Assembly: GCA_951406725.2 (NCBI GenBank)
Contig: OX597821.1
Coordinates: 97,960,001-98,024,000 of the forward strand
Source: Octopus vulgaris
Lineage: Eukaryota
DNA length: 64,000 bases
Reading direction: 5' to 3'
Shown here piece after piece: positions 720 through 61,430 of the stretch. Positions within the stretch are counted from its first letter, which is position 1; every line of letters begins with the position of its first letter. The notes below the pieces were generated by a model that worked only from the letters and a program-made list of their open reading frames with translations, made no database searches and was not told the origin of the DNA. Position numbers and translations under genes: made by a program.

Positions 720-3700
720 ATAATATCTTTCCAGTAAATTTATCGCATCAAAAACCTCACTGTATTTACTGCTATCTTCTCAAGTTGTGCTATCCCATTT
801 GAAGCATTAGTCTTCTGTAGATACTATCAAAAATTCCACTGTACCCACACATATGTACCCACATAAATCTATCCCAAATGAAGCCCTAATCTGAAGTTCT
901 GGTTCTCTTCCCATCTAACAGAGATGTCATGGCATATATTACTCTCTCCTATAGATCAATCACATTTGAGACTCTGCTCCTCTCTCAGTCTGCCAGAGAT
1001 AGCACTGTGTCTACCTATATCTTCTCCAATAAATCTATCACATCTGAAGCTGTAGTACTCTGATAGTTTGCCAAAGATTCCACTGCATCTAGTGTTGTCT
1101 ACTCCAACAAATCTATCACATCTCAAACCCTGTTACTCTGTCACTCAGCCAGAATTTCCACTGTACTCTCTGCTATTTTCTTGAAGAAATTTATCACATC
1201 TGAAGTTCTGGTTCTCTGGTAGTCTACCAGTGACTCCACTGTTATCTTGTATATGTAACACCTTTGACACCCTGGTTCTCTGTGAGTCTGCCTGTCATTC
1301 TACTCTGCCTATGCTATCTTATACTATATCTATTATATCTAAAGCTCTGGTCTTCTATGTGTCAGAAACTGCACTGTATCTTCTGCTATCTTCTCCAACA
1401 AATCTATTACATCTGAAGGCAGAGCATACTATTAGCTTTCCAAAGACTCTACTGTATCTGCTGCTGTCTTCTCTGATAAATCTATGCCATTTGAAGCACA
1501 AGTTCTCTGTCAGTTGGCTAAAGACTTCACTGTATCCACTGCTATTTTCTCCAAGAAATCTATCACATCAAAATTCTTGATACTCTGAAAGTCTGCCAGA
1601 GATTCCTCTGTACCTGCTGCTATTTTCTCCAATAAATCTCCATTGTATCCATTGCTGTCTTCTCCCATATCTATCACATCTGTGCCCTGGGTCTTAATCA
1701 ACTTAGAACTTCTATTGGGTCTACTGCTGTCTTTTCAAATAAAGATGATCCTCTGTAGAGTCTACCAGGGATTCTACAGTAACATTTATATGTCCTCTTA
1801 TGCAACTATCATATCTGAAGTCTTAAGTGTCTGTCTGTCAGAGACACTACTACACCTATTGTTATATTCATCCATATCTAATACACTTAAAGCTCTGGTA
1901 CTTTGACTTCTGCCAGAGATTCCACCTTATCTGCTGCTATCTTCTCCAAAAAATCTATCATGTTTAATGCCCTTGTCCTCTGACAGGGTGACAGAAATTC
2001 CTCTGTACATACCATTATCTTTAATAGATCAATCACATCTGAAGCACTGCTACTCAGTCAGTCTGCCAGAGATTGTACTGTACCTATCAATATTTTCTCC
2101 AATATATCTATCCCATCTGAAGTCCTAGTACTCTGCTAATTTGCCAAATATTCAGCCGGAGCTAGTGCCATCTGCTCCAACAAATCTATCACATCTGAAG
2201 GCCTGATACTCGACCAGTCAGCCAGAGATTTCATTATATCCACTGCTACCACTTCTAAAGTCCTGGTTCCCTATCAGTCTTTTAGGGATTCCATTGTACT
2301 TACTACTATCTCCTCCATATCCATCACATCTGAAACCCTCATTCTCTGTCATTTTGCCAGAGATTCTACTGTACCCATTACTATATTCTCCTCTATGTAT
2401 CAAACCTCTGTCAGTCTGACAGAGATGTCAGCATACACAATGATATCTTCATCTATGCCTATCACATTTGAAGACCTTGTTCTTTCTCTTTCTGCCAAAA
2501 ATTCCACATTATCTACTGCTTTATTCTCCATTTAGTCTTTCATATCTGAAATCCTGGTTCTCTTTTTATTTGATAAATGATCTATTCCATCTGCAGTTAT
2601 CTTTTTACAATATATATAAAATGTCTGAAGCACTAGCGCTCTGTTTGTTTGCCTAAAATTTCTCAGTAGATTTTCTTCTCTTCTCTAATACATCTTTCGC
2701 TTTTGAAGCCCTTGTTTTCTGTCAGTTTGCCAAAGACACCATTACACTTTTGCTGTCTTCCCAAGTATAGTTATCACATTTCAATCCCTGATTCTCTGTC
2801 TGCTGGAGATTCCATTCTACTGTCTTCTCCCATATCCATCACATCTCAAGCTCTGATTACTCCTTCAATTTTCTAGAGACTCCACTATACCTACTGCTGT
2901 CTTCTCCCATGTCTATCACATCTGAAGTCCTGGCTCTTAGTTGTCTGCCAAGGATTCCACTATACCTGTAACTATATTCTCTAATAAATCTGTCACAGAA
3001 ATCTTGATTTCTGTTCATATGCAAAGATTCCACTGTATCTACAGCAGTTTTCTCCAAAAATCTGTGATTCTCTGATAGTCTAGCAAATATTCCACTCTAT
3101 CTATTGCTATCTTTTCCAATAAATCTTCACATCTGAAGTCCTAGTTCTCTGTTAGTTTGCCAAAGATTCCACTCTGTCAACTGCTGTCTTCTTCAATACA
3201 TCTTTCACATCTGAAGCCCATGTTCTCCTTCACTCTACCAAAGATACCACTAAACTTACCACTGTCTTCCTAAGAGCAGCTATCATATCTCAATCCCTTG
3301 TTCTCTTGCTTTCTGCCAGAGATTCTAATATATACACTGCTATCTTCTATATCTATTATGTGAAGGCCTGACTCTCTGTCAGCCTGCCAATCATTATATT
3401 GTATCTTCTACTATATGATGCAATACAGCTATCACATCTGAAGACTTATTTCCCTACCATTATGTCAAAGATTCTATCATACCTCCTACTATTTTCTGCA
3501 GTAAATATAACTCTGAAGCTCTGGTTCTTTGAGATTTCCAAAGATTCCGCAGCACTGACTGCTGTTGTCTCCAATAAATCCATCCCAGCAAAAGTCCTGG
3601 TTTTCTGTCAGTCAGGCAAACATTTCACCCTATCTCCTGCTGTGTTCTTCAATATATCTATTACACCTGAAGAGTTGGTTCTCTCACTCTACCAGAGATT

Positions 3701-6544: not shown

Positions 6545-8590
6545 AAATGGAACCATCACCCCTACCAAAAAAAGAATATAGGACCTAACCCTAAGGTTGT
6601 AAGCCACCAGCAATACAATATCAGGAGTACCCTAACTTCAAACAGAGAAAGGAAAAATCACTACCCTCAGCATAGACATTGCAACCTCCTCCCCCCATAA
6701 GGAGTTACCAATGAAATCTTCGCTCCAACAATCTACTAAACAACCATGTACAACAAACCCATACCACACGCAATAATTACCAACAATGGCCCCCTAAAAC
6801 ACAACGTCCGAACATGGGATATCAGGACACACTTTTCAATACCATTCCAAGAGCCTTCACCATAAATCACAACACAGCACCCCGTAGCAATAAGGAACAA
6901 CAACATAACAGCTACTGTCCCAACCACCGCAATCATTTTTTAGACCCAATACGCAAACACAGAGACATGAGATAGCACCAAACAGACAGGAGGAACCAAA
7001 AGTGATAAAAATTATCAATCTAACTCACAAAGAACTAACAGCAAACCAAATCAATATGCTCTCCAAAAGGCTCAACTGTACACCCACCCCACAATGCCCC
7101 AACTACAACGAAATGAAAGAAGACATCACGGAATTCTGTAGAAAGTTACAATTTGCTGAGGAGCTATACAACAAATACAACAAGGACAATCGTTGGTCCG
7201 AAATAAAAGTAACTACACCTCCTCAAAAGATAAGAACAAAACTCTTGATCATTTCTGTGAATACATCTTGAATTACTCATATCAACATATGCACAAACAA
7301 AAACACAAACCAAACTTCAGCAAAAAAGAATAGGCTGAGATGAACAAATTAAAAGATGACAAAACACAACAATCAAAGAGGCTGATAAAGGGAGTGCAGT
7401 TGTCTTAATGGACACGGTATGCTATATAACTCTAGTACTATCCATATTAGAAGACACAACATATTATGAAAAAGTCCAACACCACAGTCAGCAGAAAATA
7501 ATGAGAGACCTAAAATCCATGTTAAACCTATACAGAGAAGGTCTCACCAACAAAGAATATGACTATATGACCAATTTCAAAAGTAAAACCAATCAATTCT
7601 ACGATATTCCCAAGATACACAAAAGTGAGAAAACAAGTAACACATGCAGGATAGCCACAGGCGTAATAATCAAAGTCCCTACTGGTAATGACCTCCAATT
7701 GAGACTTATAATAGCAGGTCCCACATGCAAAACCCAACACTTCAGAAACTTTTTAGATACCCTCTTAAAACCATTCCTCAAGTATGTCAAAAGCCACATA
7801 AGGAACAACCTGGATATGCTCAATCACCTTGCTGAAACAATAAACAAAAACACCCTACTAGTATCGTTCGATGTAGTCAACCTCTATTCCAATATCTCCC
7901 ACAACCTAGGAATAGAGGCAATTCAATTCTGGTTAGAGAATTATGCCAATGAACTCCCACATCGCATAAAAAAAGAATTTGTGATAGAAGGGCTAAAATT
8001 TATCTTGGAGAATAACTACTTCGTCTTCAAAACAACTTCTATCAACAAAAATCAGGGACTGCAATGGGTACGAGAATGGCCCCCTCCTTTGCTAACCTAG
8101 TCATGGGATATCTAGAAATTAGTCTTTATCATAAGGTTCTAGAAAAATACGGCAATCCATTCTCCCACTACATAGAAAATAACTGAAGAGATACCTGGAT
8201 GATTGTTTCATTCTTTGGCATGCAAGTATAGAGAGACTTAAAGAATTTCAAGCACTTATAAATGGACTGGACATAAACATTCAATTCATGATGGGATTCC
8301 TCGACATCTTCATTAAGAAATCTAACAACATAATAGAAACAGATATATACTATAAGCCTACGGACTCCAAGCAATATCTACCATTCAACTCATGCCACCC
8401 CAGACACACCAGAATGAATATCCCCTTCAACCTAGCGAAAAGGATATATACTATAGTTTCAAATGTAAGCAACAGGGGCACATGACTACATGAACTAAAG
8501 GATATACTCATCACCAGGAACTACCCAATTTCACTAATTGACATATGCTTTCAACATCCCCTAATTTGGGATGTCCATGAACTCAGACAA
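6545..8590 (+). mobile_element. Penelope-like retroelement, reverse transcriptase pseudo-ORF
   Basis: Across frameshifts and stops: IINLTHKELT, IKEADKGSAVVLMD, FDVVNLYSNI, GTAMGTRMAPSFANLVMG, RYLDDCF, FLDI, YYKPTDSKQYLPFNSCHPRH. Confidence 0.9.
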
Positions 8591-25404: not shown

Positions 25405-25630
25405 AGCTTGGCAGAAACGTTAGCATGCCGGGCGAAATGCGTAGCCGTAATTCGTCTGTCATTACATTGTGAGTTCAAATTCCGCCGAGGTCGACTTTGC
25501 CTTTCATTCTTTCGGGGTCGATAAATTAAGTACCAGTTACGCACTGGGGTCGATGTAATTGACTTAATACCTATGTCTGTCTTTGTTTGTCCCCTCTATG
25601 TTTAGCTCCTTGTGGGTAGTAAAGAAATAG
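25405..25630 (+). mobile_element. SINE family B (Nin-like)
   Basis: TGGCAGAAACGTTAGC...GAGTTCAAATTCCGCCGAGGTCGACTTTGCC...GTAAAGAAATAG. Confidence 0.9.
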
Positions 25631-26006
25631 GTATTGTAATCAGAAGGTAGAGCACCCAGATTGTGCAGTAGCTTGTTAGTTGTATAGCTAGGTGGTGTTG
25701 CAGATAGGTAATGTGACATTTAGATGGTGTTACAACTAGGTGGTAGTATAACTAAAAGATTGTATAGATAAGTAATAGTTGTTGCTCAACCTCAGATTGA
25801 CCATACATATGATCAAAGGAATTCCTACTGTGACCATTCCACCTTTTTTTTAGAATATATATGACTACATTATCTAATGTCTAAAATATGTCTGGAGTTG
25901 TTACTCTACTGCTAATGACCAGATTTGCTCTCCACTGCATAACATATTTAATTTTAATTAATTATAGTTTCAAGGTTGTCTCCCTTGCCTTTTTAATTGG
26001 AATTTA

Positions 26007-27619: not shown

Positions 27620-28044
27620 AGAGCAAATCTGGTCATTAGCAGTAGAGTAACAACTCCAGACATATTTTAGACATTAGATAATGTAGTCATATATATTCTA
27701 AAAAAAAGGTGGAATGGTCACAGTAGGAATTCCTTTGATCATATGTATGGTCAATCTGAGGTTGAGCAACAACTATTACTTATCTATACAATCTTTTAGT
27801 TATACTACCACCTAGTTGTAACACCATCTAAATGTCACATTACCTATCTGCAACACCACCTAGCTATACAACTAACAAGCTACTGCACAATCTGGGTGCT
27901 CTACCTTCTGATTACAATACCTATTTCTTTACTACCCACAAGGAGCTAAACATAGAGGGGACAAACAAAGACAGACATAGGTATTAAGTCAATTACATCG
28001 ACCCCAGTGCGTAACTGGTACTTAATTTATCGACCCCAAAAGAA
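27620..28044 (-). repeat. 425-bp near-perfect inverted duplicate of 25507-25931
   Basis: Reverse-complement identity covering SINE and non-SINE sequence; one mismatch seen (CCCCG vs CCCCA). Confidence 0.95.
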
Positions 28045-30414: not shown

Positions 30415-31603
30415 ATCACAGCAAAATTTGTGCCTCACTTGGTCATGGAAGATCAAAAGCAGTCATGACTGAATGCATGTCACAAACTAAAAGAACAGTT
30501 GGAAGTTGATCCAGACCTCTTTTTGATGGTCATCACTGGTGACGAAACCTGCTGCTACAACCTGGAAATGAAACAGCAATCAAGTCAATGGAAGACTTCA
30601 ATGTCACCACACCCCAAAAAAGCACGTCATGTGAAGTCCAGTGTCAAGACGATTCTGGTTTGCTTCGTAGATGCGAAAGGAATTGTCCTCACAGAATTTG
30701 TTCCACCTGGTCAAACTGTTAACCAGACATTTTACTTGGAAGTTCTGAAGTGCTTGTGAGACACGGTGAGATGAAAATGCCATGACCTGTGGCAAAGTGG
30801 AAAGTGGTGGTTTCATCACAAAAACGTGCCTGCACTTACTACCTTGAGCGTGTGACAGATTTTGACTAAGAATAACATGACCCCAATCTACCCACCCTCT
30901 GTATTAATCTGATCTTGCTCCCTGCAACCTTTTTTTTGTTCCCTTGAATGATAAAAGTCCTAAAAGGAAAACGTTTGGAAGAGGTGAAAATGGGAAAGAG
31001 GTGAAGAAAAAACGATTGCGTCACTTTGCAAGAGTTCCAGGACTGCTTCAAACAGTGGAAAATGCATCTGGACTGAGGCATTGCTTCAAATGGAGAATAT
31101 TTTGAAGGTGATAAAAGTGTAGACATGTAAAGTTAAGTGAATAAAATAATATTCATTTCTACTCTAGGCACAGGGCCCAAAATTTTAGGGGAGGGGGCTA
31201 GTCGATTAAATCGACTCCAATATGCAACCGGTTCTTAATTTATCGACCTCGAAAGGATGAAAGGCAAAGTTGACCTCAGTGGAGTTTGAACTCTGAACAT
31301 AAAAACAGACAAAATACCTATTTCTTTATTACCCACAAGGGGCTAAACACAGAGGGGACAAACAAGGACAGACATAGGTATTAAGTCGATTACATCGTCC
31401 CCAGTGCGTAACTGGCACTTAATTTATCGACCCCGAAAGGATGAAAGGCAAAGTCGACCTCGGCGGAATTTGAACTCAGAACGTAACGGCAGACGAAATA
31501 CCGCAAAGCATTTCACCCGGCGTGCTAACGTTTCTGCCAGCTAGCCGCCTTGTGAATAAAATAATATTGCAAAATTCCAGTTTCATTTGGGTACCCACTT
31601 GTA
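30415..31603 (+). mobile_element. Mariner transposase pseudogene (catalytic half and right TIR), interrupted by a SINE dimer
   Basis: AKFVPHL, VITGDETC, KQQSSQWK, EFVPPGQTVNQTFYLEVL, decayed PDLAPC.FFLFP motif; right end TTTGGGTACCCACTTGTA. Confidence 0.85.
31154..31551 (-). mobile_element. Dimeric family B SINE (one tRNA head, two Nin-like cores)
   Basis: Single 17-bp TSD GTGAATAAAATAATATT at 31137-31153 and 31552-31568 brackets both units. Confidence 0.85.
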
Positions 31604-44061: not shown

Positions 44062-47000
44062 ACTGTTGCTCTATATGGTTATTGCTATTTATTATTATTG
44101 ATATTCATTAATGTGTCTTTATTTGTTATTGTTGCTCTCATCCCTTTACCCTGGATAAATCCCTCAACATTTCTTCTTCGTTGTTTATTTTATATTTCAT
44201 CTTGGACCTGGTGGATAGTAAAAGAAATCATTAGTATTATGATTATTATTGGCAATGTTGCATTACTTTGAACTAACTTGTGCATCGTTTCTGAAAATTA
44301 TCCTCTCCAGACCTTCCTTAAATTGCATTTAAGGCTTTAAATGGTAAAAATAGGATTTATTTTGTAGATGAGTGAAGAGGGGATAATGTCAGAATCAGAA
44401 GAGAGAGAGGTGACGACTAAACCACCTTTTAGAGATCTTTGTAATTATTTAGATGAGCTTTGAGAACACAAAAGATTTAGTTGAGATTTAAATTCTTTAT
44501 AGTCTTCAATTCCCTTTAAATACCAACTTCAAATTCCACCGGGAATAAGCTTTTTTTTTCATCTTTCTTGGATTGATTAAATATGTATCAGTCAAGTACT
44601 TTTGATTCTCTTCTGTGTGTGTGTGCGTGTGTGTGTGTGCACGAGTGCATACACACACGCACATGCACGCATGCATGTGTGCTCCCTTGCCTTGTAGGTT
44701 GATACAACTCTCATCCTCCATGTATAGTACTGAGCCAAAATTAGAGGTTTGTAGTTTAACAAGCTTTAAAATTTTTCTTGAAATAAAGAATGAATTAATT
44801 TTTGGTCCACAGTTTCTTTTGTTGCTATTGTTGATTCTCTCTCTCCCTCTCAAACGAAATGCTATATCATGAAATGACTATAGCAAATTGGTAAAATACA
44901 TGTGTGTATGCATATTTGAGTGTACAAAAGACAAAAAGTATTCATACATGTAATAAAGTTTATGCATTCAATTGTAACTTAGAGTATTGACAGAGGGAAT
45001 CATCAGCTTTCAATGAATATATATATGTCCAGCAAGTAGCTTGATCTGAGACCAAGTGTTAAAACTGAAGCAACTGCATCACGGAAGAACTAAAGAGCTT
45101 TTAATAACATGCCAAGTTGCAAAATTCACTTTAAATTTAAACATATTTCATGAGGTATCGAATTTTTTGTTGTACAACTGCAGCCAAGTTTCTGACAGTT
45201 GTGCAATACAAATTTTGACACCTAATGGAAAAAATTTAAAGTTAATTTAACAACTTTGTGTCTTATTAAATGACTTTTCCAAGATTTACTTGCTATATAT
45301 ATAAACATTTAGATGTAAAACTCTGCAAGGGTAAAAATATATAAAAATAAAAAAAAGATACAGTTAAGAAAACAAGAAGAAATACACATTAGAAATTAAT
45401 AATGGTTGTGATGTTTTTATATTCAGCAGTAGATTTATAAATATTTGACCTACTGGTGATTTCCCAAATAAATGACCAACATAACTGGCTATATAAATTA
45501 TTGACCACAAATTTGTAAAATAGTAAAAGATGTGTGTGTGTGTGTGTGTATGTATGTGTGTAAAAGAGTGTTGTAATTTTGCTTGAAGCATTGCAAGTGT
45601 GTAAATAAAATAAATGTTTGAAAAAAAAATGTCCTTTGAACAATGCAGGTGACAAGTTACGCAAAATATGTAAGGTGATATCAAGAAATTAAAACAAAGA
45701 GAAAAGATATTGTATTACCATACATAAGTTGTTTAATGATCCTATAATATTTTGAGAAAGATTCTCCTATTCAACTATAGAAAAGAAAATTATCAAGGAG
45801 TTTGGAGAAATTTGTTGTTTGCAGATCATTAAACAACATATATAAGGTAATACATTATCTTTTTGTTTTCATTTATTGACATTACCTTACATATTTAGCT
45901 GAACTCCTCAACAGAAGTGCTTAACGGTTTTCTTTTTTTCAAACATTTATCTCATATATATAGGTATATATACATATATACATGTGTGTGTTTGTGTGTT
46001 TTGCTTTATGAACAAGAGAAAAAGTACTCAGTGCATGTTGAAGAGTATAATTAATTGCACACAGCTGTAGTTCCTGCATTGCAACTGAGAGTTTTACTTT
46101 ATATTCATTACATTAAACTGTCTTTGTTGCTTGACAGAAATATGGATAAAAAGAAATTCTGAGTAGCAATGCATGAGGTACCAGCTACATGCAATAAATA
46201 TATATATAGAAACAGTAGTCTTTATATGGTTGATACAAAGTAAGAGAGACTACTCAATACCAATTCGGTAGCTGTATATGTGTGAATATCAGTTAAATTC
46301 AATGGAACTTACAACTCTGAGGTCTTTGTAATAATACTGAGTTCTTGTACTAGTAATAAGTTACATGAAATTTCTCAACTTGAAATATTCACATACACTG
46401 GAATTATTTCAGTGTCATTGATATTTACAAATGCATGTTTAATGTACATTATATTCATACACACACACACATACATACACATACACACGGAAATATAAGC
46501 CACTTATTACCATATGCTTACAATATTACAGATTGAAGTAAATAACAAGTTTTAGTCTTTCATCGTTTTCAGTCACAGGAGCTGAAGCCATGCTGGGGCA
46601 GCTGTCTATGTATTTGAAAATATTACAGGAGATTCTCTGGAAAAGTTTAGAGTTTTATTTATTTGTTAACCATCATGTAAACCCTTTATGAGTCTTTAAG
46701 GGAGCAGGGTCAGGGAAAAACAAAAAGGAAAGTTAAGAGGCCAATCTAAGATCCTATTGTATTCAATTATTCCAGTAATATGTTGTATAGCCTTAAAAAT
46801 TAATTAATTTATGTGTGTGTTTGTGTGTGTGTGTCACCAAGAATAATGGAAAATATCAGGTTTGGAAAAAGTTACATTACATATATGTGTATATGCCCTC
46901 ATGCATTTGAAATGTGCACAGTAGTAAAAATCAGTAGCTCAGCAGATGTTAACAATGTTAACAGATTAGTGAAAAAGAAAACATCTATGATGTGGATATT

Positions 47001-47517
47001 CCATACAAATTATAGCTTTAAATGTATACCTGTTGCTATTAGGGTACTTGGTTATGCAACTAACTGTTTCAGTACCAATTTTGAGAAGATGTGCCTCACA
47101 AAAGCAAAAAGGACATGGTTAATTACAAGATTACAATTAGAAACCATTAATGAAACTGTGAAAAGATGTAAAAACATTCTGGAAGTTTAGCATGTAACAA
47201 GTGCACACACCACACACATGTAGCCATAAGAACATGAATGTGTAGATGTGCATAAATCAAAGCATAGATTTGATTCACGATGACATCCATGTTTAAACAT
47301 AATATATACTTGTGCAGATAAATACATACAAATATGACTGCCTAGTTAACACTGTCTTAATTTTAATGAAAGAGCCTTTCTTTGTCGGTCAGAAATTCGT
47401 AAAAATAAAGCCAGATAAACAAATTAGTACACATGCACACATACATACATTCCTTCCTTTACTCATGGATAAGAGTCACTATGTTTCACCAAAGTTCCAT
47501 CTGTTACAGTCAATGCC

Positions 47518-47749
47518 TATTTCTTTACTACCCACAAGGGGCTAAACACAGAAAGGACAAACAAGGACAGACAACGGATTAAGTCGATTATATCGACCCC
47601 AGTGCGTAACTGGTACTTAATTTATCGACTCCAAAAGGATGAAAGGCAAAGTCGACCTCGGCGGAATTTGAACTCAGAACGTAGCGGCAGACGAAATACC
47701 ACTAAGCATTTCGCCCAACGTGCTAATGATTCTGCCAGCTCACCGCCTT
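47518..47749 (-). mobile_element. SINE family B (Nin-like)
   Basis: 14-bp TSD TTACAGTCAATGCC at 47504-47517 and 47750-47763. Confidence 0.92.
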
Positions 47750-47899
47750 TTACAGTCAATGCCGTAAAAAGACAGACTACAACATGGTACACACAGCTAT
47801 CACTGAACTGTAGCATCTATTATATTCCAGAGTGACAACTTTTCATCTTGTCAATGCTACTGAGAAAGTGGCAAGACTATAATGTCTAAGGTACTGAGA

Positions 47900-49250
47900 G
47901 AAAAATTAATGTCACTCACATTCTTATTTGTTTTTGTTAATGGCCTGAAGTTATATTCAAGTAATATTGATGACACCAAAGGACAGAACTGGTCATGACA
48001 TTTTCATGGGACATAAGAATGGAGTTTGGTGAAGATTAGTGTTCATTTTTGGTAATCAACCAAAAGAAGATTGTTGACCAGACAAGGAATAAGGATACCA
48101 ATGGCCTGGCTATTTCTTTTACATCCATGATGAATGCTACAACTATCTTGAAATTGATGAGAATGTTGCATGCATTGGTATTGTGAGAAAATCTTGAGTT
48201 ATAAATAATATATCAGCAGATTCAAAAGGCATGAACGATCATCTCCAATAATGCATTTGCAATATCATATACTAATGTTAGTACTAACGTTGGGGATACT
48301 AGACCAGATACTCAAAGAAATCTGTAGCTTAGACATCATCATGAGGAAAATATTAACCATCAAATGTAACATTAACAGTAACAGTGATAAGATTTATGTG
48401 AGATGGAGGCAGAAGCATAAGGGGGAGTCTAAATGGTCTTTAATGTCACACTGTGCCACTCAAACAAAAACAGAAAAAAATGTGCACATAATACGTGCTC
48501 AGGAGGAAAAACATCAGGTGAGGCACTTCTGAATAGATACTCTGGGTGTACAACTGTTCCATGAGGATTAACCTACTTAAATACTCACCAGTATAAACTT
48601 ATACAAAGATGCCTATTCTGAAAGTAGAGGATATCAACAGAATAGATAGTAAGAGTATCCCCTCTAAGATATCACATCTCACCTAGAAGGATATGCCATC
48701 ACTATCTGTAAAAAGGGACTATCCACTAAATATCTGATCAACAAGAGAGACAATGCTTATAAATTTCTATGCTGTGATAGAAAATGTCAAACGTACCATT
48801 TCAGTGAGGAACGTATTACCTACATCAGCAGGCTAAAGTTATCTACAAGATACCTTTCTATGACATTGTTACAAAAACTATTTACTATGCTATCTGCAGG
48901 AAGGATTGTCCTGATAGTTCTACAAGAAGCACACAAGAATCTATCCACGCCTTTAACAATAAAGAATACCAGTGGAACATTCTGATAAAAACAGTGTTCT
49001 GGAGCAAATACAATAGATTTGATATTGTTCTATGGAGCAGGGAATGAAAATGGTGCACTGAAGTAGAGGTCAGCTGCCTAGCAGATGTGGATGCTAGGGT
49101 GAACTAGTATGAAACTTAGTTTTTATATCCAGGCTACAGATTCTCATTTGTACCTATTATCATAGGATTACTGTACTATGTAACAACAAATTCAGTTGAT
49201 TAGTGCTACAATGAAGATCTGTAAAGCATCCCAAAAATTCTACATTTGGG
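47900..49250 (+). mobile_element. Decayed R4/Dong-clade non-LTR retrotransposon (RT C-terminus, zinc knuckle, restriction-like endonuclease)
   Basis: VLTLGILDQILKEICSLDIIMRKILT...SDKIYV; STKYLINKRD...CDRKC (CCHC region); DIVLWSRE*KWCTEVEVSCLADV (PD..E endonuclease region). Many lesions. Confidence 0.7.
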
Positions 49251-49661
49251 TTTCCTGAAATGAATACATACATAAAGAGTAATTATATTTTTGTACTAAG
49301 GAGATATGTACAACATAATAAGAGTACAAACATGCCCCCACACAACCAAAATCACAGGTCCTTGGAACTGTCTTGTCACTTTATTAGTGACCAGTTGGAA
49401 TACTGTGAAGAACTTAAATCTAAAACTAAAAAAATGTATAAATAATAAAACTTGCACATACACAAACATGTTTATATCTATACATATGCATATATATACT
49501 ATAAAAACTGGAGTAACAAGCTCTTTGCAAATAAGAGTGAAACAAAAAGCTACGTAGGGTTTACTTAAAAAAAAAAAAACTTGCAACATGTGTACACATT
49601 CAGAAATACATAAAAACTCCCAACACACAAACATATTTGGAGTATAAAGGATGATAATATT

Positions 49662-49880
49662 ATTTCTAATTTTGGCACAAGGCCAGCAATTTAGAGGGAA
49701 GAGATTTCATCAATATCACTGACATCAGTACTTGAATGATATTGTTTATTTTGTCAACCCAATTAGAGCGGGGATGAAAGGTAAAGTTGACTGCAGCAAT
49801 TTTGAACTTAGAATGCAAAGAGCTAGAAGAAATACCGCAAGGCATTTTTCCCAACATTCTGGTAACTCTGTCAGTTCACT
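49662..49880 (-). mobile_element. Old family B-related SINE
   Basis: TTTCTAATTTTGGCACAAGGCC...GATGAAAGGTAAAGTTGAC...AAATACCGCAAGGCATTT. Confidence 0.8.
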
Positions 49881-51467
49881 AAACTATAAAGGATTAGAAT
49901 CCCTTATATTAACAATCGTAAAATCAATCGATCCAACATAGAACATGCATCATGCCATGCACTATTAATGGCTCTAGATGTAACCTTTGTCTCTCAAAGA
50001 AATATAATACCTTATTAAAGCCTTTTTGCAATTTTGAATGAAAAGTTAGAATTGGTGAATTTTTGCAGATGCTTCCAGCAATATCTATTTAGAAATTTAC
50101 AAATACCGACTGGTAAAAGTAGTGTTTCACAAAATGGATTTACTATATACCCTGAGTGATAGTTACATGCAAAAAAAAGAAAAAAAGGCTACATAAACAA
50201 CAGGTGCTACCTTGAATTTGTACCTTACATAATACTGAAGAAATGAACATTTTTTTTTTCATGTAAATAGACAAATATATCATATGTTCTGAAAGTAACA
50301 ACTGAATAGATGACTGTGTGATGCATTTTTTAATGGTTCTTTGACAACCAGTCAAATACTGATGACTATTTACATTCAGATGCTTGCTAATATATTATAC
50401 CATTTCCCTTTGTTAATTGTTTAAATATTTGGCAATGTGAAGCTGGGAGTATTGATTCAAAAATGTCAGCTTCTGAGATGTGTGTGTATACAACTAGAGT
50501 CGAATGATCTAATAATCAGAATACTCAAAGCTTGAAAGACAAAATACTCAGAACACCAATTTAAAAAATATTTCAAACTTTTAGAGTTTTAAAACATATA
50601 TGTTCAAAGTTTTGAGAGGAGAGTTTATTCAAGAAACATATAACATATTTACTTTTATTATGTTATGTAAGAATAGAGGGAAAGTATAAATTTAAAATGG
50701 AATTTGAGAAACATAACATTTATTTATTTTGTCAGTATAACTATTTTAGGGGTGAAAATCATCTGGAAAAGATTTATTTACAGTTTTAAAACCAAGATTA
50801 CATCAGAATTATAACATTTCCTTTTTTTTATACTATGTCAAAATAACAAAAGCATATTTACTTACAAAATAATTACAATAAATTTATATTGTAGGGATAT
50901 GATATTTAAGACAAAAATGAAAACAAATAGCTAATTTATCAAATACTACATTCCTTAATTTCTCTCATTATTAAATATGTTCCCTCTTGTTTCAATTCAA
51001 AGCTAACACACCAACCGATTAACAAGTTGAATTTTGATTCATTTGCTTATCTCGTTTCGCCTTCGTTTTTTCACTTCATAATGCCAACATAGGACTTTCA
51101 GTTATTTGATTTGTCTACATTTGTATTAAAAGAAATTACGAAAACTAATAATGAGAGAATTCACAGAATGGTAATTATTCTATCAATAAATAAACTATTT
51201 CAGTTTTCACTTACATCTATGATGCCATATCCCTGAAATATACATATGTTTATTTTGTAAATGAATATGCTCACTATATCTTGCTTGCTTTTGTTATTCT
51301 GAAGTAACACAATAAAAGTAAATATGTTACAATAAACTCCCTCTTAAAACCATAAAATAAATATCTTTTTATGGCAGTTTTCCACATTCAGTCATATGAT
51401 TGGTACTGTGTGTGTGTGTGCATGTGTAAGTAAAATGAGTATGTATCTATATATGTGTGTATGTATG

Positions 51468-51499
<32 letters not shown>

Positions 51500-51645
51500 C
51501 TCACACGATTGGATGCATTCAATACACAACAATTAAACCATTCAGGATTTGGTTCAAATAACAATTGGGTGGGTTAAATTCTTACTGTTGTGTGCACACA
51601 TGGGTCCTCTGTGTACTAAATCAATGCTCATGTCCTTTTTCTATC

Positions 51646-51678
<33 letters not shown>

Positions 51679-52093
51679 TATATGTATGCATATGCATATA
51701 TACAGGTCAGTAGTAGAACATGTAAACAAAGTAGAGGTGTATTCCTCTCACCCATCTATGAAGGCAGTAACTCCAAATAAGAACTCACTGGGGCCTATCC
51801 AGCTCAAACCAGCATCAAAAATAGATTAAAAAAAAAAAACATATATATATATATAGGAAACTTTCACAAATGCTTTTCTTGTGAGATTTTTGACTTGCTG
51901 AATTGTGTTACATAAATCATGTAAGCTACTGACAGAGTTCTAGACATTTCAGCTGAGCATTAATCATTAATTATTCATGGAGTCCTCTGTGATTATATAT
52001 TTCATGAGAGATAAATCAGAATGTATCACTGGGAGCACATGTATCTTTATATATATATATATACACACACATATATACATATACACACATACC

Positions 52094-52321
52094 TATTTCT
52101 TTACTACCCACAAGGGGCTAAACACAGTGAGGACAAACAAGGACAGACAAACGGATTAAGTCGATTATATCGACCCCCAGTGCGTAACTGGTACTTATTT
52201 AATCGACCCCGAAAGGATGAAAGGCAAAGTCGACCTCGGTAGAATTTGAACTCAGAACGTAGCAGCAGATGAAATACCGCTAAGCATTTCGTCCAGCGTG
52301 CTAACGTTTCTGCCAGCTCGC
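52094..52321 (-). mobile_element. SINE family B (Nin-like)
   Basis: Matches 281-513; preceded by ATACC. Confidence 0.9.
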
Positions 52322-53760
52322 ATACATATATATATATCACCATCATCACCACCATTTAACATCCATTTCAAATGGTGATATGCAAACATAAAATTCTTAC
52401 ATGACTCTATATAGTATGGAATGAATGACTTATAACATCTTTGCACAGGTTTCAGTGATAATTACATAATGATTATTCAAAATCAATTTTTACATGCAAA
52501 CCACTTGTTCGGAAGCATTATAAGTAGAATAACATAAATTTTTCTTTCCAGGAATCAGTGTTGGAGTGCAATAGAACATATGGAAGTTATAATTCATTGG
52601 TCATATGCTGTGCACATTAAAAACAATACATTTTATATATCATCATCATGACCACCATTTAACATCCATTTCAAATGGTGATATGCAAACATAAAATTCT
52701 TACATGACTATATAGTATGGAATATATATATATATGTACTACTGGTATTGCTGAATTCTTGGGGAATTTAACAAATAAATTCTCTAATGAATTAATTACT
52801 TGTGGATGCAATAGTCCTAGTCCATGTAAGAGTCACTTAATACATGTTCATTTATTTCTCAAGTACCTTACTGCTATTGTTGCTTTCTCTGTTTCTTACA
52901 GAATCACCTCACTACAATCTTATATACACACACACACACACATTTATAAATGCTGGCTGTTCATGAATGTCTGAGGAATACCATTAATGATCATTAAAAG
53001 AATCATGTTTTCAACAATGACTCTCTAAACACCCCTAGGCTCTTACCTGTATTTTAGTAGATCTTACAAAGGTCAAAGCTATGTGCACCAGTGTGCAGAA
53101 ATGAACTTCTATATGTAAGTCACCACTAGATTTGCAAAGCTTCCTGCACGTACACGTTACACAATTTTTATCATGAATACATTTCAGTTAACATTTTTGT
53201 CTGACCTGATGACTTTGTTGGTAACTTGTGAGCCCAGCATTGGAAAGACATATACACCTACATATATCGCAGACCAAGTTTAACCTATCCACTTCACAAA
53301 TTGTGCGTTTTCATGCAGTTCACTTCAAATCTGCATGGGAAATGCAAGCTTTTTCAAAAATATTTGCACCTTCCTTTACCCGTTTTCTCCTTTGGTGACA
53401 ATCAAATTATTCCTTTTCCAGCTGACCCCACTTATTTATATACACATGTGTATAAACAACAAATATATATATATATAATCTGTGTGTATATGTATGTATT
53501 GAGATATATATATATATATATTTATTTATAGTGTATGTATAGAGAGAGACACATATATGCTCATTACAAATCAATTGATAATTCATCTGTTGCTACTCCT
53601 ATACATGTGGTACTACATGTGTATTTATTCAAGCAATGTTCACATTGTACCATCCATCATGTGTAAATATGAATAGCAATAGAGTGAAGCAACAACTAAT
53701 ATAGAAATGTGACACCTCTTAATGAGTACTTTTTCATTTGTAAACAATATTTTATAATTA

Positions 53761-53792
<32 letters not shown>

Positions 53793-54276
53793 TGTATTTC
53801 CCAGCACCCCAATTTCAGGGGGAAAAAAGGCATACATAAAAACAAAATCTCAACACTTTCACATACTTTTGTTAGTGGCTCAGTGACATATATCTTGTAT
53901 TAAATATATATCATATTTTACATGTCCTTTTATAAGTTGTGTTAATCCTTCCCCTTGTTTTTATGGAACTTTATCTTATTCATCACCACATGTTTATTAT
54001 TCCTTACAGTGCAGAGACATGATAAATTTAGTATAAGCTTCCTCTGGACTGAAATTGGTTTATCTTCCAGGATACCTGGTAAATTTTTAAAACTTATTTT
54101 GGAAAGTAAATTGCATCCTCACTGGTGAGGAATCATACATATATACAGGCCAGAAAATAATGGTGCTATTTTTCACCCAAAATATGTCTTGAAAATTTAG
54201 CATGCAACCTGGAGCATGAAGGTTACATAGCCTGATGAGTGGAAACTGTATGTATGAATGTATGTGTGTGTGTGTA

Positions 54277-54319
<43 letters not shown>

Positions 54320-55072
54320 GTGTGTGTGTGAATACATTTATATAATATATGCATACACACGTTGTTTATATTGTTTCCCTTCAAGTCCCATTACTTAGCA
54401 GCTTGACAAATAGATTTTGATGAAATAGAGATCAGACTGAAGTAATTCAGATCAATAAAACTCTTCATGGTTGTGCCCCAGCATGGCCACAGTCCAGTGA
54501 CTGAAACCAATAAAAGAATACAACAATGTGTATATATAGATCTATGAGGAAAAGCAGAGAGAGAGAATGAAGCATGTTTAAGATGAGGCTTGTTCAGGGA
54601 AGACTTCAACCATAACAACTTGTAAAAACATTTTTTATTTAGCGTCTTTCCTCATTTTGAAGTATGTTTTCTGTTGAAACTTTCCTCTTTCTCTTTTTTT
54701 TTTTATAATTATTATTTTTTTGCTTTTCATATGAAAGGGAACAGTTTGCTTTCTTTCTTCTTTCCTTTATTTATATATTTATCATTTTCTTTCATATCAG
54801 TTGGTTATCAAGAAGAATATTTTTTTACCATTTCCAGCAGTTCAATATTGTAGTGGGTTTCAGATACAGGGGGGTGGGGGAACAGGGCTAGTAGGGTGAG
54901 CATAATGAAATGATGAGAAAGGTTTTTTTTTTCTTTTTTGCCTTTCTCTCTGTTTTTTTTTTTTTTTTTACACTAAGTGTAAACAAGGGGCAGGGGTTAA
55001 GTGAATAAAATGTCTGAAGTAAAAGAAAAATTATAAATAAAAAATTTAACGAAATAAAATATAACAATAATA

Positions 55073-56383: not shown

Positions 56384-56437
56384 TCATTGACTGTTTAAAT
56401 ACTGTTGTATAACTTTGTAACAAAAATCATACTGCTC
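56384..56437 (-). CDS. Receptor-type protein tyrosine phosphatase, terminal coding exon (EQYDFCYKVIQQYLNSQ*)
   Basis: Acceptor TTTTTTTTTCTTCCCTAAAG. Phase 0, in frame with the upstream exon ending ...FIEDV. EQYxFCY is the PTP Q-loop motif. TGA stop. Not in the ORF track. Confidence 0.92.
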   Translation of the reverse strand, partial: EQYDFCYKVIQQYLNSQ

Positions 56438-60415: not shown

Positions 60416-61294
60416 ATTTTTATTTTTATCATTCCCAGAAAGAAGACAAGCGAAGTTAATCCTTGCAGGATTTGAACTCAGAATGTAGACATTCTCATTA
60501 TAGAGTTAAGTTAGGAAAACAAAGATAACAGCAAAAAACTAAACACTGCATGTTTTATCATTTGTTAATCCTTGCTTCTTTTATCACAATAAAGAAGGGT
60601 AGTGTATTTAATTGAATTGACTTCAGTACTTCATTGATAGATATTCTAACAACCCCTGAATGGATGAAAAGTGAATTCTGGTGGTAGCTGAACTCAGAAC
60701 ATTAGTATTATCAATTGAAGTGATGCCAGTATTTGACTGGTATTTCTTTTCTCAAGCTAGGAGAAATAAAATGTAAAACTGATACTGGCAGGAATTGAAC
60801 TCAGTACAGTACATGTAGCGTTTATTCGTTTGAAGCATATACTTTAAATTTAAGTTGTAGTGAAGAGATTGTGTTGTACAGTAATTTATGAAAATTGTAA
60901 CAATTTATGCAAGCGAGTTCTGTGTATATAATCACTCTACATGTCGATTTAACAATGCAATGAGTGTTCTAAATTACGCTAACATAATTAAAGCTTTAGA
61001 GAGAAGACCTTACGTATAAATACTAAATCTCATAACTTGTACATATTAAAGGTGGGATATGTGTGACTGAAACACTGTCAGCACCAAAACTTTTGGTGGG
61101 AGTCTTACAATGGAATGAATGATTTTTTATATAGACATAGAGTTAAAAAGTTTTGAGAAAGAGTGTTATAGATTAATACAGGCATTGGCCCTAAATGGAT
61201 GAAACGTAGTTACCTCTGGGGTAGCAATGGAACTCTTCCAGACCATAATAAAAACAAAAATGTTTGGAATCAAATGTAACATTAAAATACTTAC

Positions 61295-61430
61295 AACATC
61301 TTCAATGAATTGATATCTGTTTACACGAATTTGTTTCACAGTCTGGAAGACATCTACTTCCCTGTCTACTTTCATTCTCTCTATAACAGCACTGATTGCA
61401 CAAAACAGACCGCTGCGCCGTGCCCCATCC
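61295..61430 (-). CDS. Receptor-type protein tyrosine phosphatase, penultimate exon (probably membrane-distal D2 domain, PTPRK/M/T-like)
   Basis: Acceptor TTTTCTTTTTAG, donor GTAAGT. 136 bp, phase 2 to phase 0, the conserved PTP exon that starts within the HCx signature. Encodes DGARRSGLFCAISAVIERMKVDREVDVFQTVKQIRVNRYQFIEDV. Confidence 0.93.

What the first reader, a model, noticed from the sequence alone, without database searches (positions are those of the whole stretch)
44280..53700. Cluster of long, mutually unrelated imperfect fold-back hairpins downstream of the PTP stop codon
Seen: between the recognisable TEs, apparently unique AT-rich DNA repeatedly folds back on itself, at 44289-44394, 45031-45294, 45610-45950, 46054-46195, 46275-46398, 47231-47293, 50440-50533, 50609-51350, 51856-52010 and ~53588-53693. 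The arms do not resemble each other or any repeat in the window, and they contain bulges and wobble-type mismatches. Established: coleoid cephalopods have very extensive ADAR A-to-I editing, which needs imperfect dsRNA, and long hairpin RNAs can yield endo-siRNAs in other animals. Inference: this could be a multi-kilobase structured RNA domain (long 3' UTR of the PTP gene, 3' UTR of a convergent gene, or a hairpin lncRNA). It is my best candidate for something undescribed here.
Basis: partly seen in the sequence, partly recalled or inferred. Interest (0 to 1): 0.75.

Follow-up and report, generated by a model that had tools for sequence, protein, structure and literature searches.

The report
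Old retroelement foldbacks, edited by ADAR
Four of the ten reported hairpins are real and are worn copies of repeats scattered across the genome, likely pasted in back-to-back by Penelope-type jumping genes; one carries likely RNA-editing marks, and nothing here shows a purpose-built RNA structure.

Summary
Four of ten hairpins beat shuffled controls (45016-45295, 45559-45962, 45989-46220, 50500-51392); six do not. All four belong to dispersed repeat families, so the DNA is not unique, and the density is at the upper end of, but within, the range of random genome tiles. The best-resolved family is a 206-nt unit: 18 of 30 young copies carry an inverted copy of themselves that stops short of the end, 11 of 30 run into TA repeats, and two family consensuses fit a minimal hammerhead ribozyme. 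This is the known signature of Penelope-like retroelement insertions; no autonomous partner was linked. Contigs of three probable RNA runs show five clustered T>C changes (A>G on the minus, phosphatase-gene strand) in one stem, absent from a DNA run: likely ADAR editing of read-through or long-UTR RNA. The window's stems are about as decayed as other copies, so selection on structure is not shown. The scan already noted Penelope-pasted, hammerhead-bearing inverted repeats on other DNA of this genome. Ordinary locus; the wider idea that such insertions supply this animal's editing substrates is testable.

The parts
45016..45295 (-). H2: decayed copy of a dispersed ~206-nt unit plus its inverted duplicate (long arm 45016-45189 with a ~55-nt unpaired tail at the low end; short arm 45194-45295); hammerhead core lost
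   Evidence: (82% identical to family consensus)
45559..45962 (-). H3: decayed copy of a dispersed ~285-nt unit plus inverted duplicate (long arm 45559-45825 with ~35-nt tail; short arm 45823-45962); family consensus fits a U3-A8 minimal hammerhead, broken in this copy
   Evidence: z -12.9
45708..45716 (-). Five probable A-to-I editing sites (45708, 45710, 45713, 45715, 45716) in the H3 stem
   Evidence: T>C in contigs of X1, X2, X9; none in X16; 4 of 5 predicted paired with U
45989..46220 (.). H4: two inverted copies of an older, low-copy repeat (long arm 45989-46095, short arm 46151-46220); family less well resolved
50500..51392 (.).
53671..53740 (-).
   Evidence: E 0.0015
44070..54900 (-). 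Stretch covered patchily by contigs of three probable RNA runs; strand inferred from T>C changes only; two runs have contigs running past a stretch end
   Evidence: bins with depth: 23, 30 and 25 of 30
54634..54639 (-). AATAAA, candidate proximal poly(A) signal of the PTP gene (a hint only)
   Evidence: an X9 contig ends at 54618, an X1 contig at 54694
56384..56437 (-). Last coding exon and stop codon of a tandem-domain receptor-type protein tyrosine phosphatase (EQYDFCYKVIQQYLNSQ*)
47511..47752 (.). Young high-copy repeat (second copy 52088-52321, related piece 49644-49874); not part of the hairpins

Best explanation
The four real hairpins are decayed copies of dispersed repeat families, likely born as back-to-back insertions made by Penelope-like retrotransposon machinery, and they likely lie in RNA that runs on past the phosphatase gene, where ADAR likely edits at least one of them as a passive substrate. 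Shown: multi-copy families, one arm shorter at a fixed point, 5'-truncated and single-unit copies, arms near-identical within young copies, decay in the window's copies. Inferred: a short non-coding RNA with a minimal hammerhead is reverse-transcribed from two start points about 35-65 nt apart on the two nicked strands of an AT-rich target. The two copies join head to head and leave a perfect hairpin plus an unpaired tail; point mutation then gives the bulges and wobbles. When RNA polymerase reads through on the minus strand, the fossils refold and are deaminated. Odds by step: dispersed decayed elements 0.95; Penelope-type origin 0.8 for H2 and H3, about 0.55 for H4 and H8; minus-strand RNA with editing in H3 0.85; no selected function 0.8.
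For: Copy number; a 28-nt tail motif of the young H2 subfamily has 1906 exact matches, control 0. Architecture: in 17 of 27 two-arm pairings of H2 copies the second arm starts at model position 54-66 while the first starts at <=9. Of the first 30 of the 1906 loci, 18 carry an inverted copy, 16 of these ending at position 135-150 of a 206-nt unit with variable inner junctions; 12 are single or 5'-truncated; 11 run into a TA repeat. Young copies have arm identity 0.98 and 0.89 with 16 and 10 shared departures from consensus, so the second arm is copied from the first at insertion. H8 shows partial tandem pieces and a short arm often starting at model position 33-37. H2 and H3 consensuses fit a minimal type I hammerhead with a bulge between positions 9 and 10.1 and a palindromic stem III; 10 of 30 young H2 copies fit; background is 5 hits in 800,000 nt. 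Literature: 5' truncation, adjacent inverted copy, partial tandems, 30-40-bp tail and (TA)n targets in PLEs (PMC8557442, passages); two reverse-transcription starts bracketing the tail, both strands cut and extended (PMC11167929, passages); minimal hammerheads with that bulge, U3-A8 cores and opposite-strand pairs 100-700 bp apart (PMC4209133, parts 1-2 of 4). Editing: five T>C within 9 nt in nested subsets (X2 two, X1 three, X9 five), none in DNA run X16; tallies T>C:A>G 19:11, 29:6, 30:12 against 14:14; the family consensus has T at these sites. Neutral decay: arm identity in the window 0.71, 0.80, 0.70 against medians 0.70, 0.75, 0.65; H3 has 0 shared non-consensus changes.
Against: No autonomous Penelope-like element was tied to these families: none of 4 loci with a PLE-like RT among 278 fetched loci carried a family match. 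The hammerhead descriptor was written after I saw the candidates, so its background rate understates chance. No hammerhead was found in the H8 consensus, and the H4 family has only a GAAAC...GUA half with no consistent core. The H2 tail (55-65 nt) is longer than the published 30-40 nt. The genome also holds a young DUF3504/CryptonA-like family with a terminal hairpin and a hairpin-plus-tail derivative, so the shape alone is not diagnostic. The laid runs are guessed to be RNA, are contigs, and come from other individuals than the DNA run; only 40 of 170 difference rows were shown; the X1 tally alone is not significant (p 0.2). No contig links the PTP stop codon to the hairpins. The region is in the top tenth of tiles at the strictest useful threshold; the window's H3 arms equal the best of 11 other copies; H8 has 28 G.U-making against 14 A.C-making changes on the minus strand (p 0.04 unadjusted).
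Confidence: 0.72

Rival explanations
1. The hairpins are fossils of non-autonomous DNA transposons (CryptonA-type tailed hairpins, Helentron-associated HINE/Helitron2, or foldback MITEs) rather than retro-insertions; the rest of the reading is unchanged.
For: A young 2.4-kb DUF3504 family in this genome ends in a ~75-bp hairpin and has a 370-nt hairpin-plus-tail derivative. Helitrons are abundant (1172 candidates). H2 and H3 tails hold a small stem-loop near the end, like the HINE geometry of subTIR 38-60 bp and palindrome 8-35 bp from the end (PMC4067079, passages). Several H8 copies carry the outer-end sequence on both sides.
Against: Family models match neither the ends of 10 autonomous Helitron loci nor 6 plus 15 DUF3504 loci; the H2 hits seen there were separate insertions. 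12 of 30 young H2 copies lack the second arm and several are 5'-truncated, and inner junctions differ from copy to copy, which fits reverse transcription better. Arms are 100-300 bp, not 11-15 bp.
Confidence: 0.14
2. One reading: the repeats were exapted, and an extended PTP 3' UTR or a hairpin lncRNA keeps these stems under selection to control the transcript through editing, nuclear retention or small RNAs.
For: Probable RNA cover and editing; four old foldbacks in 6.4 kb, top tenth of tiles at score >=60; minus-strand G.U bias in H8; H3 arm identity at the top of its family range.
Against: No excess of compensatory change in H2, H3 or H8; no G.U bias in H2 (12:11) or H3 (8:10); six of ten hairpins at chance level; density not exceptional by local folding; no Rfam family at gathering score.
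Confidence: 0.07
3. The hairpins are repeat fossils in silent DNA; the contig cover is DNA carry-over or repeat cross-mapping, and the T>C changes are alleles or paralogous letters.
For: The runs are only guessed to be RNA, no silent control stretch was laid, and DNA and RNA runs come from different individuals.
Against: The X1 contig bearing the changes is 317 nt with 6 other letters, whereas other family copies are mostly under 85% identical. The changes are all one type, nested across three studies and absent from X16. The three runs hold 47-98 million letters of contigs against a 2.8-Gb genome, which fits transcriptomes (inference).
Confidence: 0.07

Closest known systems
Penelope-like element (PLE) insertions with inverted 5'-truncated copy and tail (PMC8557442, passages; PMC11167929, passages)
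   Same: Constant tail end, 5' truncation, adjacent inverted copy that lacks the tail, partial tandems, AT/(TA)n targets.
   Different: No RT or GIY-YIG ORF in these units; H2 tail 55-65 nt against 30-40 nt; no autonomous partner linked.
Minimal type I hammerheads of metazoan PLEs (PMC4209133, parts 1-2 of 4 read)
   Same: Bulged nucleotide between 9 and 10.1, palindromic stem III, U3-A8 core (H3 consensus), opposite-strand pairs.
   Different: H2 has a G3-C8 core, not named in the parts I read as natural (an engineered double mutant partly cleaves, PMC11167929). The window's copies have lost the motif. None found in H8; cleavage untested.
Animal non-LTR retrozymes (bioRxiv 10.64898/2026.07.22.740005, passages; PMC7229834, listing only)
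   Same: Short non-coding, hammerhead-bearing units proposed to derive from PLE ends, often as dispersed monomers.
   Different: Retrozymes are defined by head-to-tail tandems with a hammerhead in each unit; the sampled H2 copies are single or inverted pairs, with a complex array in 1 of 30.
Self-folding, hyper-edited repeats of Xenopus: Harbinger (PMC5625713, passages) and Kolobok-T2 (PMC10636886, passages); repeat-directed UTR editing in squid (PMC9068888, passages)
   Same: A repeat that folds on itself is an ADAR target without a nearby inverted partner; cephalopod untranslated edits mostly overlap repeats.
   Different: Here the palindrome probably arises at each retro-insertion rather than from a palindromic DNA-transposon consensus; the copies are old (about 80-90% identical to consensus).
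HINE/DINE-1 and Helitron2 (PMC4067079, PMC3627910, PMC7492417, passages); Crypton and Eulor5/6 (PMC3212892, PMC5753468, PMC13465315, passages)
   Same: Asymmetric ends with a terminal stem-loop (HINE); a hairpin-plus-tail derivative exists for a DUF3504 family in this genome.
   Different: No sequence match to sampled autonomous ends; arms far longer than subTIRs; single-arm and truncated copies are common.

Membership tests
PLE-mobilised insertion | Constant 3' end with 5'-truncated copies | tested here: met
   H2 family: 12 of 30 single copies, starting at unit position 1 (7, one being the reference copy) or 9-74 (5); the 30 were selected by the tail motif, so the constant end is by construction there, but unselected tile copies show it too
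PLE-mobilised insertion | Adjacent inverted copy lacking a fixed terminal tail | tested here: met
   H2: 16 of 18 inverted copies end at 135-150 of 206; H3: 10 of 14 second arms start at model 26-54; H8: short arms often start at 33-37
PLE-mobilised insertion | AT-rich or (TA)n target | tested here: met
   11 of 30 young H2 copies run into a TA repeat; 3' flanks 55-100% AT; no background rate computed
PLE-mobilised insertion | Shared end or pLTR with an RT + GIY-YIG element | tested here: inconclusive
   No family match in the 4 of 278 fetched loci with PLE-like RT; no genome-wide search was left for this
Minimal type I hammerhead | Core N3-UGA-N-N8-A with N3-N8 pair, GAAA, stems I and II, palindromic stem III, NUH | tested here: met
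   H2 and H3 consensuses and 10 of 30 young H2 copies fit; descriptor written after seeing candidates; not met in H8 consensus or in any window copy
Minimal type I hammerhead | Self-cleavage | not testable with these tools
   needs in vitro transcription of a young copy as monomer and dimer
Non-LTR retrozyme | Head-to-tail tandem units each with a hammerhead | tested here: not met
   29 of 30 young H2 loci are single or one inverted pair; one complex array; window copies are not tandem hammerhead units
MITE (DDE, TIR-flanked) | Matching inverted termini at both ends with a target-site duplication | tested here: not met
   H2 and H3 ends differ by a fixed tail; H8 ends unresolved; no TSD identified
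HINE / Helitron2 | 8-15-bp asymmetric subTIRs plus terminal palindrome, TT target, Helentron partner | tested here: inconclusive
   offset and small stem-loop present, but arms are 100-300 bp; H2 tail-end polarity does not fit a T-rich 3' end; 10 sampled autonomous loci share no ends
CryptonA non-autonomous element | Termini shared with a DUF3504/YR element, 4-6-bp terminal direct repeat | tested here: not met
   no family-model match at the ends of 6 plus 15 DUF3504 loci; extinct partners cannot be excluded
ADAR-edited repeat | Clustered A>G on the transcribed strand in RNA but not DNA | tested here: met
   five sites in three runs, absent in X16; DNA not from the same individual
ADAR-edited repeat | Partial editing in stranded raw reads with matched DNA | not testable with these tools
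   only contigs were offered for these runs
Conserved structured lncRNA / hairpin RNA | Compensatory substitutions or conservation beyond neutral copies | tested here: not met
   within-genome test only; no related genome was available for orthologue covariation
Known RNA family (miRNA, ribozyme) in Rfam | Match at gathering score | tested here: not met
   0 matches in the window; no hammerhead family among the 150 of 160 rows shown for 8 family loci

The most novel reading that the evidence does not exclude
Penelope-type back-to-back insertion is a genome-wide factory of ready-made ADAR substrates in this animal: over half of new insertions of a short non-coding unit are born as a near-perfect 130-150-bp hairpin that needs no neighbour. 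With about one foldback per 10 kb from dozens of families (40 in 400 kb, 30 families), these would be the main reason octopus tops the hyper-editing ranking, and this locus shows that they stay editable after roughly 20% decay.
Probability: 0.25. Interest if true: 0.55.

Novelty: new member of a known kind. Interest (0 to 1): 0.27.

Why it matters
For this locus, little: edited repeat fossils behind a gene are expected. It removes a candidate for an undescribed structured RNA, and it warns that foldbacks in this genome look unique inside one window because they come from many old families. The testable by-product is a candidate source of cephalopod non-coding hyper-editing. Octopus and frog show the strongest hyper-editing signal; the frog's is partly explained by a palindromic repeat, while octopus was left out of the repeat analysis (PMC5625713, passages).

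Tried and rejected
Rfam: nothing at gathering score in the window; an E-value scan of 8 family loci gave mostly microsatellite and generic miRNA-hairpin matches. No RNA holder is listed on record as RNA; that blank is no evidence either way. Own-genome DNA searches of 46030-46420 and 44270-44420 found only the window; such a search skips common words, and it missed even the query's own locus, so these blanks do not show rarity. A pattern from the 44289 arms gave 3 other places that share little beyond the seed. The six weak hairpins match nothing in 1.25 Mb of fetched DNA, except the part of 50440-50533 that belongs to H8. MITE, Kolobok, HINE and Crypton readings were pursued in turn; the Kolobok and Eulor 'tailed hairpin' leads were recalled, and the word hairpin does not occur in PMC5753468. 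An alignment fold of the tails gave no consensus structure. Contig depth (about 3-10 in the cluster, 27-29 near 54620-54900) cannot rank expression, and the two contig ends there differ (54618, 54694), so the poly(A) site is a hint only. Bins without cover were not read as silence. No second PTP gene was found in the 100 kb below the window. Three putative RT pieces at 6909-8482 gave no Pfam match. Local-fold controls covered 23 of 40 tiles before the time limit. Paper searches for these families in octopus found no description; Repbase and Dfam could not be searched, and no supplements were read, so the families may already be catalogued.
Full report
Setting. The window is G000:C8:97960001-98024000. 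A tandem-domain receptor-type tyrosine phosphatase runs on the minus strand: a second-domain exon near 61292-61429 is closest to PTP alpha and epsilon, further exons lie above the window, and the last exon ends in a stop at 56386-56384. The finding lies 2.7-12 kb beyond that stop.

Observation. Hand-picked boundaries inflate z, so I used boundary-free controls. An inverted-repeat scan on masked DNA gives four calls at score >=60 in the region (H2, H3, H4, H8) and none >=50 in 30 shuffles (a stricter scoring agrees). A local-fold scan gives H3 -7.5, H2 -6.5, H4 -5.1, H1 -3.5 and H5 -3.5; 10 shuffles never reach -5 but average 4.8 structures at <= -3.5. So four hairpins are real and six are what 9 kb of such DNA yields by chance.

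Density. Against 40 random 10-kb tiles, 3 have >=4 inverted repeats at score >=60, 6 at >=50 and 17 at >=45; against 20 flanking tiles, 0, 2 and 5. By local folding, 4 of 23 tiles examined equal the region at z <= -5. The region is at the upper end but inside the range, and it was picked as the best part of a 64-kb window. The tiles hold 40 foldbacks in 400 kb that fall into 30 families, which explains why arms look unique within one window.

Copy number. Searches of the own genome give 755 candidates for the stretch holding H3 (40 scored, all non-self matches on H3), 79 for H2 (40 scored) and 40 for H8, at 64-93% identity. H4 was missed by DNA search, but a pattern from its two arms hits 19 other places against 0 for the control. 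A model built from 13 of these, without the window, hits both window arms (E 1.6e-13 over about 110 nt and 8e-8 over about 70 nt); the 20-nt core is circular, the rest is not. In 3 of 9 folded copies the motif pairs with an inverted copy, judged by eye. H1 found no family.

Anatomy of the families. H2 and H3 have sharp outer ends, and one arm stops short at a fixed point. The H2 consensus of 16 copies is a near-perfect hairpin of about 125 bp plus a 55-nt tail; the window's copy is 82% identical to it. A young subfamily has 1906 exact matches to a 28-nt tail motif. Of the first 30 loci, all on one contig, 18 carry an inverted copy (16 ending at position 135-150 of a 206-nt unit, with different inner junctions), 12 are single or 5'-truncated, and 11 run into TA repeats. 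Two young tile copies have arms 98% and 89% alike while sharing 16 and 10 departures from the consensus, so the second arm is copied from the first when the element inserts. H8 copies show partial tandem pieces and a short arm often starting at model position 33-37; its ends stayed unresolved.

Ribozyme. H2 and H3 consensuses fit a minimal type I hammerhead (cores G3-C8 and U3-A8, a bulge before stem II, palindromic stem III), as do 10 of 30 young H2 copies and one H3 copy; background is 5 hits in 800,000 nt. I wrote the descriptor after seeing the candidates, but the bulge, the U3-A8 variant and the palindrome are published features of PLE hammerheads that I read afterwards (PMC4209133). H8 gave no hit and H4 only half a motif. 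No intact motif remains in 44070-54900.

Mechanism. These traits match Penelope-like insertions: 5' truncation, adjacent inverted copy, partial tandems, a tail at one end, TA targets (PMC8557442). In vitro, a PLE protein cuts and extends both target strands and starts reverse transcription at two sites that bracket the tail (PMC11167929). I infer that two copies primed from those two starts join head to head, giving a hairpin with one unpaired tail. No autonomous partner was linked. The genome also has a young DUF3504 family with a terminal hairpin and many Helitrons, but the sampled ones share no ends with these families.

RNA and editing. Fourteen runs guessed to be RNA hold 55-83% of the words of 44200-47400. 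I laid three of them and one DNA-sized run on 44070-54900. They cover 23, 30 and 25 of 30 bins with pieces up to 1.6 kb. T>C changes at 45708, 45710, 45713, 45715 and 45716 occur in nested subsets in all three and not in the DNA run. On the minus strand these are A>G; 4 of 5 are predicted to pair with U, and all have a 5' U or A, as ADAR prefers (recalled). The family consensus has T there, so paralogues do not explain them. Tallies of T>C against A>G are 19:11, 29:6 and 30:12 against 14:14 (p 0.2, 1e-4, 0.008, 1.0); sites are shared between runs and include repeat mismatches, and 40 of 170 rows were shown. Editing in H2, H4 and H8 is neither shown nor excluded. Whether the RNA is a long UTR or read-through is open: an AATAAA at 54634-54639 with one contig end at 54618 hints at a main end upstream of the hairpins, and nothing laid links the stop codon to them.

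Selection. Arm identity in the window is 0.71 (H2; 11 of 22 other copies as high), 0.80 (H3; 1 of 11) and 0.70 (H8; 3 of 7), with no excess of shared changes; copies were chosen by likeness to the window, which favours it. H8 shows a minus-strand G.U bias (33:12 between arms; 28:14 against consensus, p 0.04) that H2 and H3 lack; transcription-linked mutation bias (recalled) or chance would do, and weak selection is not excluded.

What is known. Repeats that fold on themselves are heavily edited in frogs (PMC5625713; PMC10636886); young repeats are the main ADAR targets across animals (PMC9989829); untranslated edits in squid mostly overlap repeats (PMC9068888). I saw passages of these papers only. 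The scan's earlier notes describe Penelope-pasted, hammerhead-bearing inverted repeats and edited Penelope foldbacks elsewhere in this genome; a look-up by sequence found nothing like 45000-46250.

Verdict. Observation partly confirmed; the structured-domain reading is not supported as stated. The locus is most likely four repeat fossils, probably of Penelope-type origin, in minus-strand RNA, with ADAR editing in at least one. New members of a known kind; interest 0.27.

Noticed in passing
L186-L189, L191 and L190:1001-1373 (e.g. G000:C17:47791447-47794887): A young (95-98% identical) 2.4-kb DUF3504/CryptonA-like family ends in a near-perfect ~75-bp-arm hairpin, with a 370-nt hairpin-plus-tail derivative; the sequence beside the hairpin is an inverted copy of the far end. 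PMC3212892 (passages) reports no terminal repeats in animal Cryptons.
   Followed up: partly
L168:3863-4183, L229-L258: Young high-copy 206-nt unit with a predicted G3-C8 minimal hammerhead, inserted singly or as inverted pairs, often in TA repeats; 1906 exact tail matches.
   Followed up: yes
   Followed up: partly
window 50757-51392: Mismatches in the H8 stem favour G.U on the minus strand (33:12; 28:14 against consensus), unlike other copies of the family. Unexplained.
   Followed up: partly
window 6909-8485: Broken reading frames with an ADKG motif recalled as typical of Penelope-type reverse transcriptases; no Pfam match; related pieces in 4 fetched loci.
   Followed up: partly
window 30469-30759: Fragment of a mariner-type transposase (Pfam Transposase_1, E 1.4e-10).
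   Followed up: no
window 25507-25931 and 27620-28044: A 425-nt inverted pair, 99.8% identical and 1.7 kb apart, suggesting a very recent insertion or duplication.
   Followed up: no
window 1020-3251: Degenerate 77-78-nt tandem repeats with strong strand skew, possibly a decayed repetitive coding region.
   Followed up: no
L166-L185: The genome holds many near-identical (99%) ~6.2-kb Helitrons with open frames of 1500-1700 codons, so the family is probably recently active.
   Followed up: no
window 52322-52422 and 52626-52723: Local direct duplication of about 100 nt, 94% identical.
   Followed up: no
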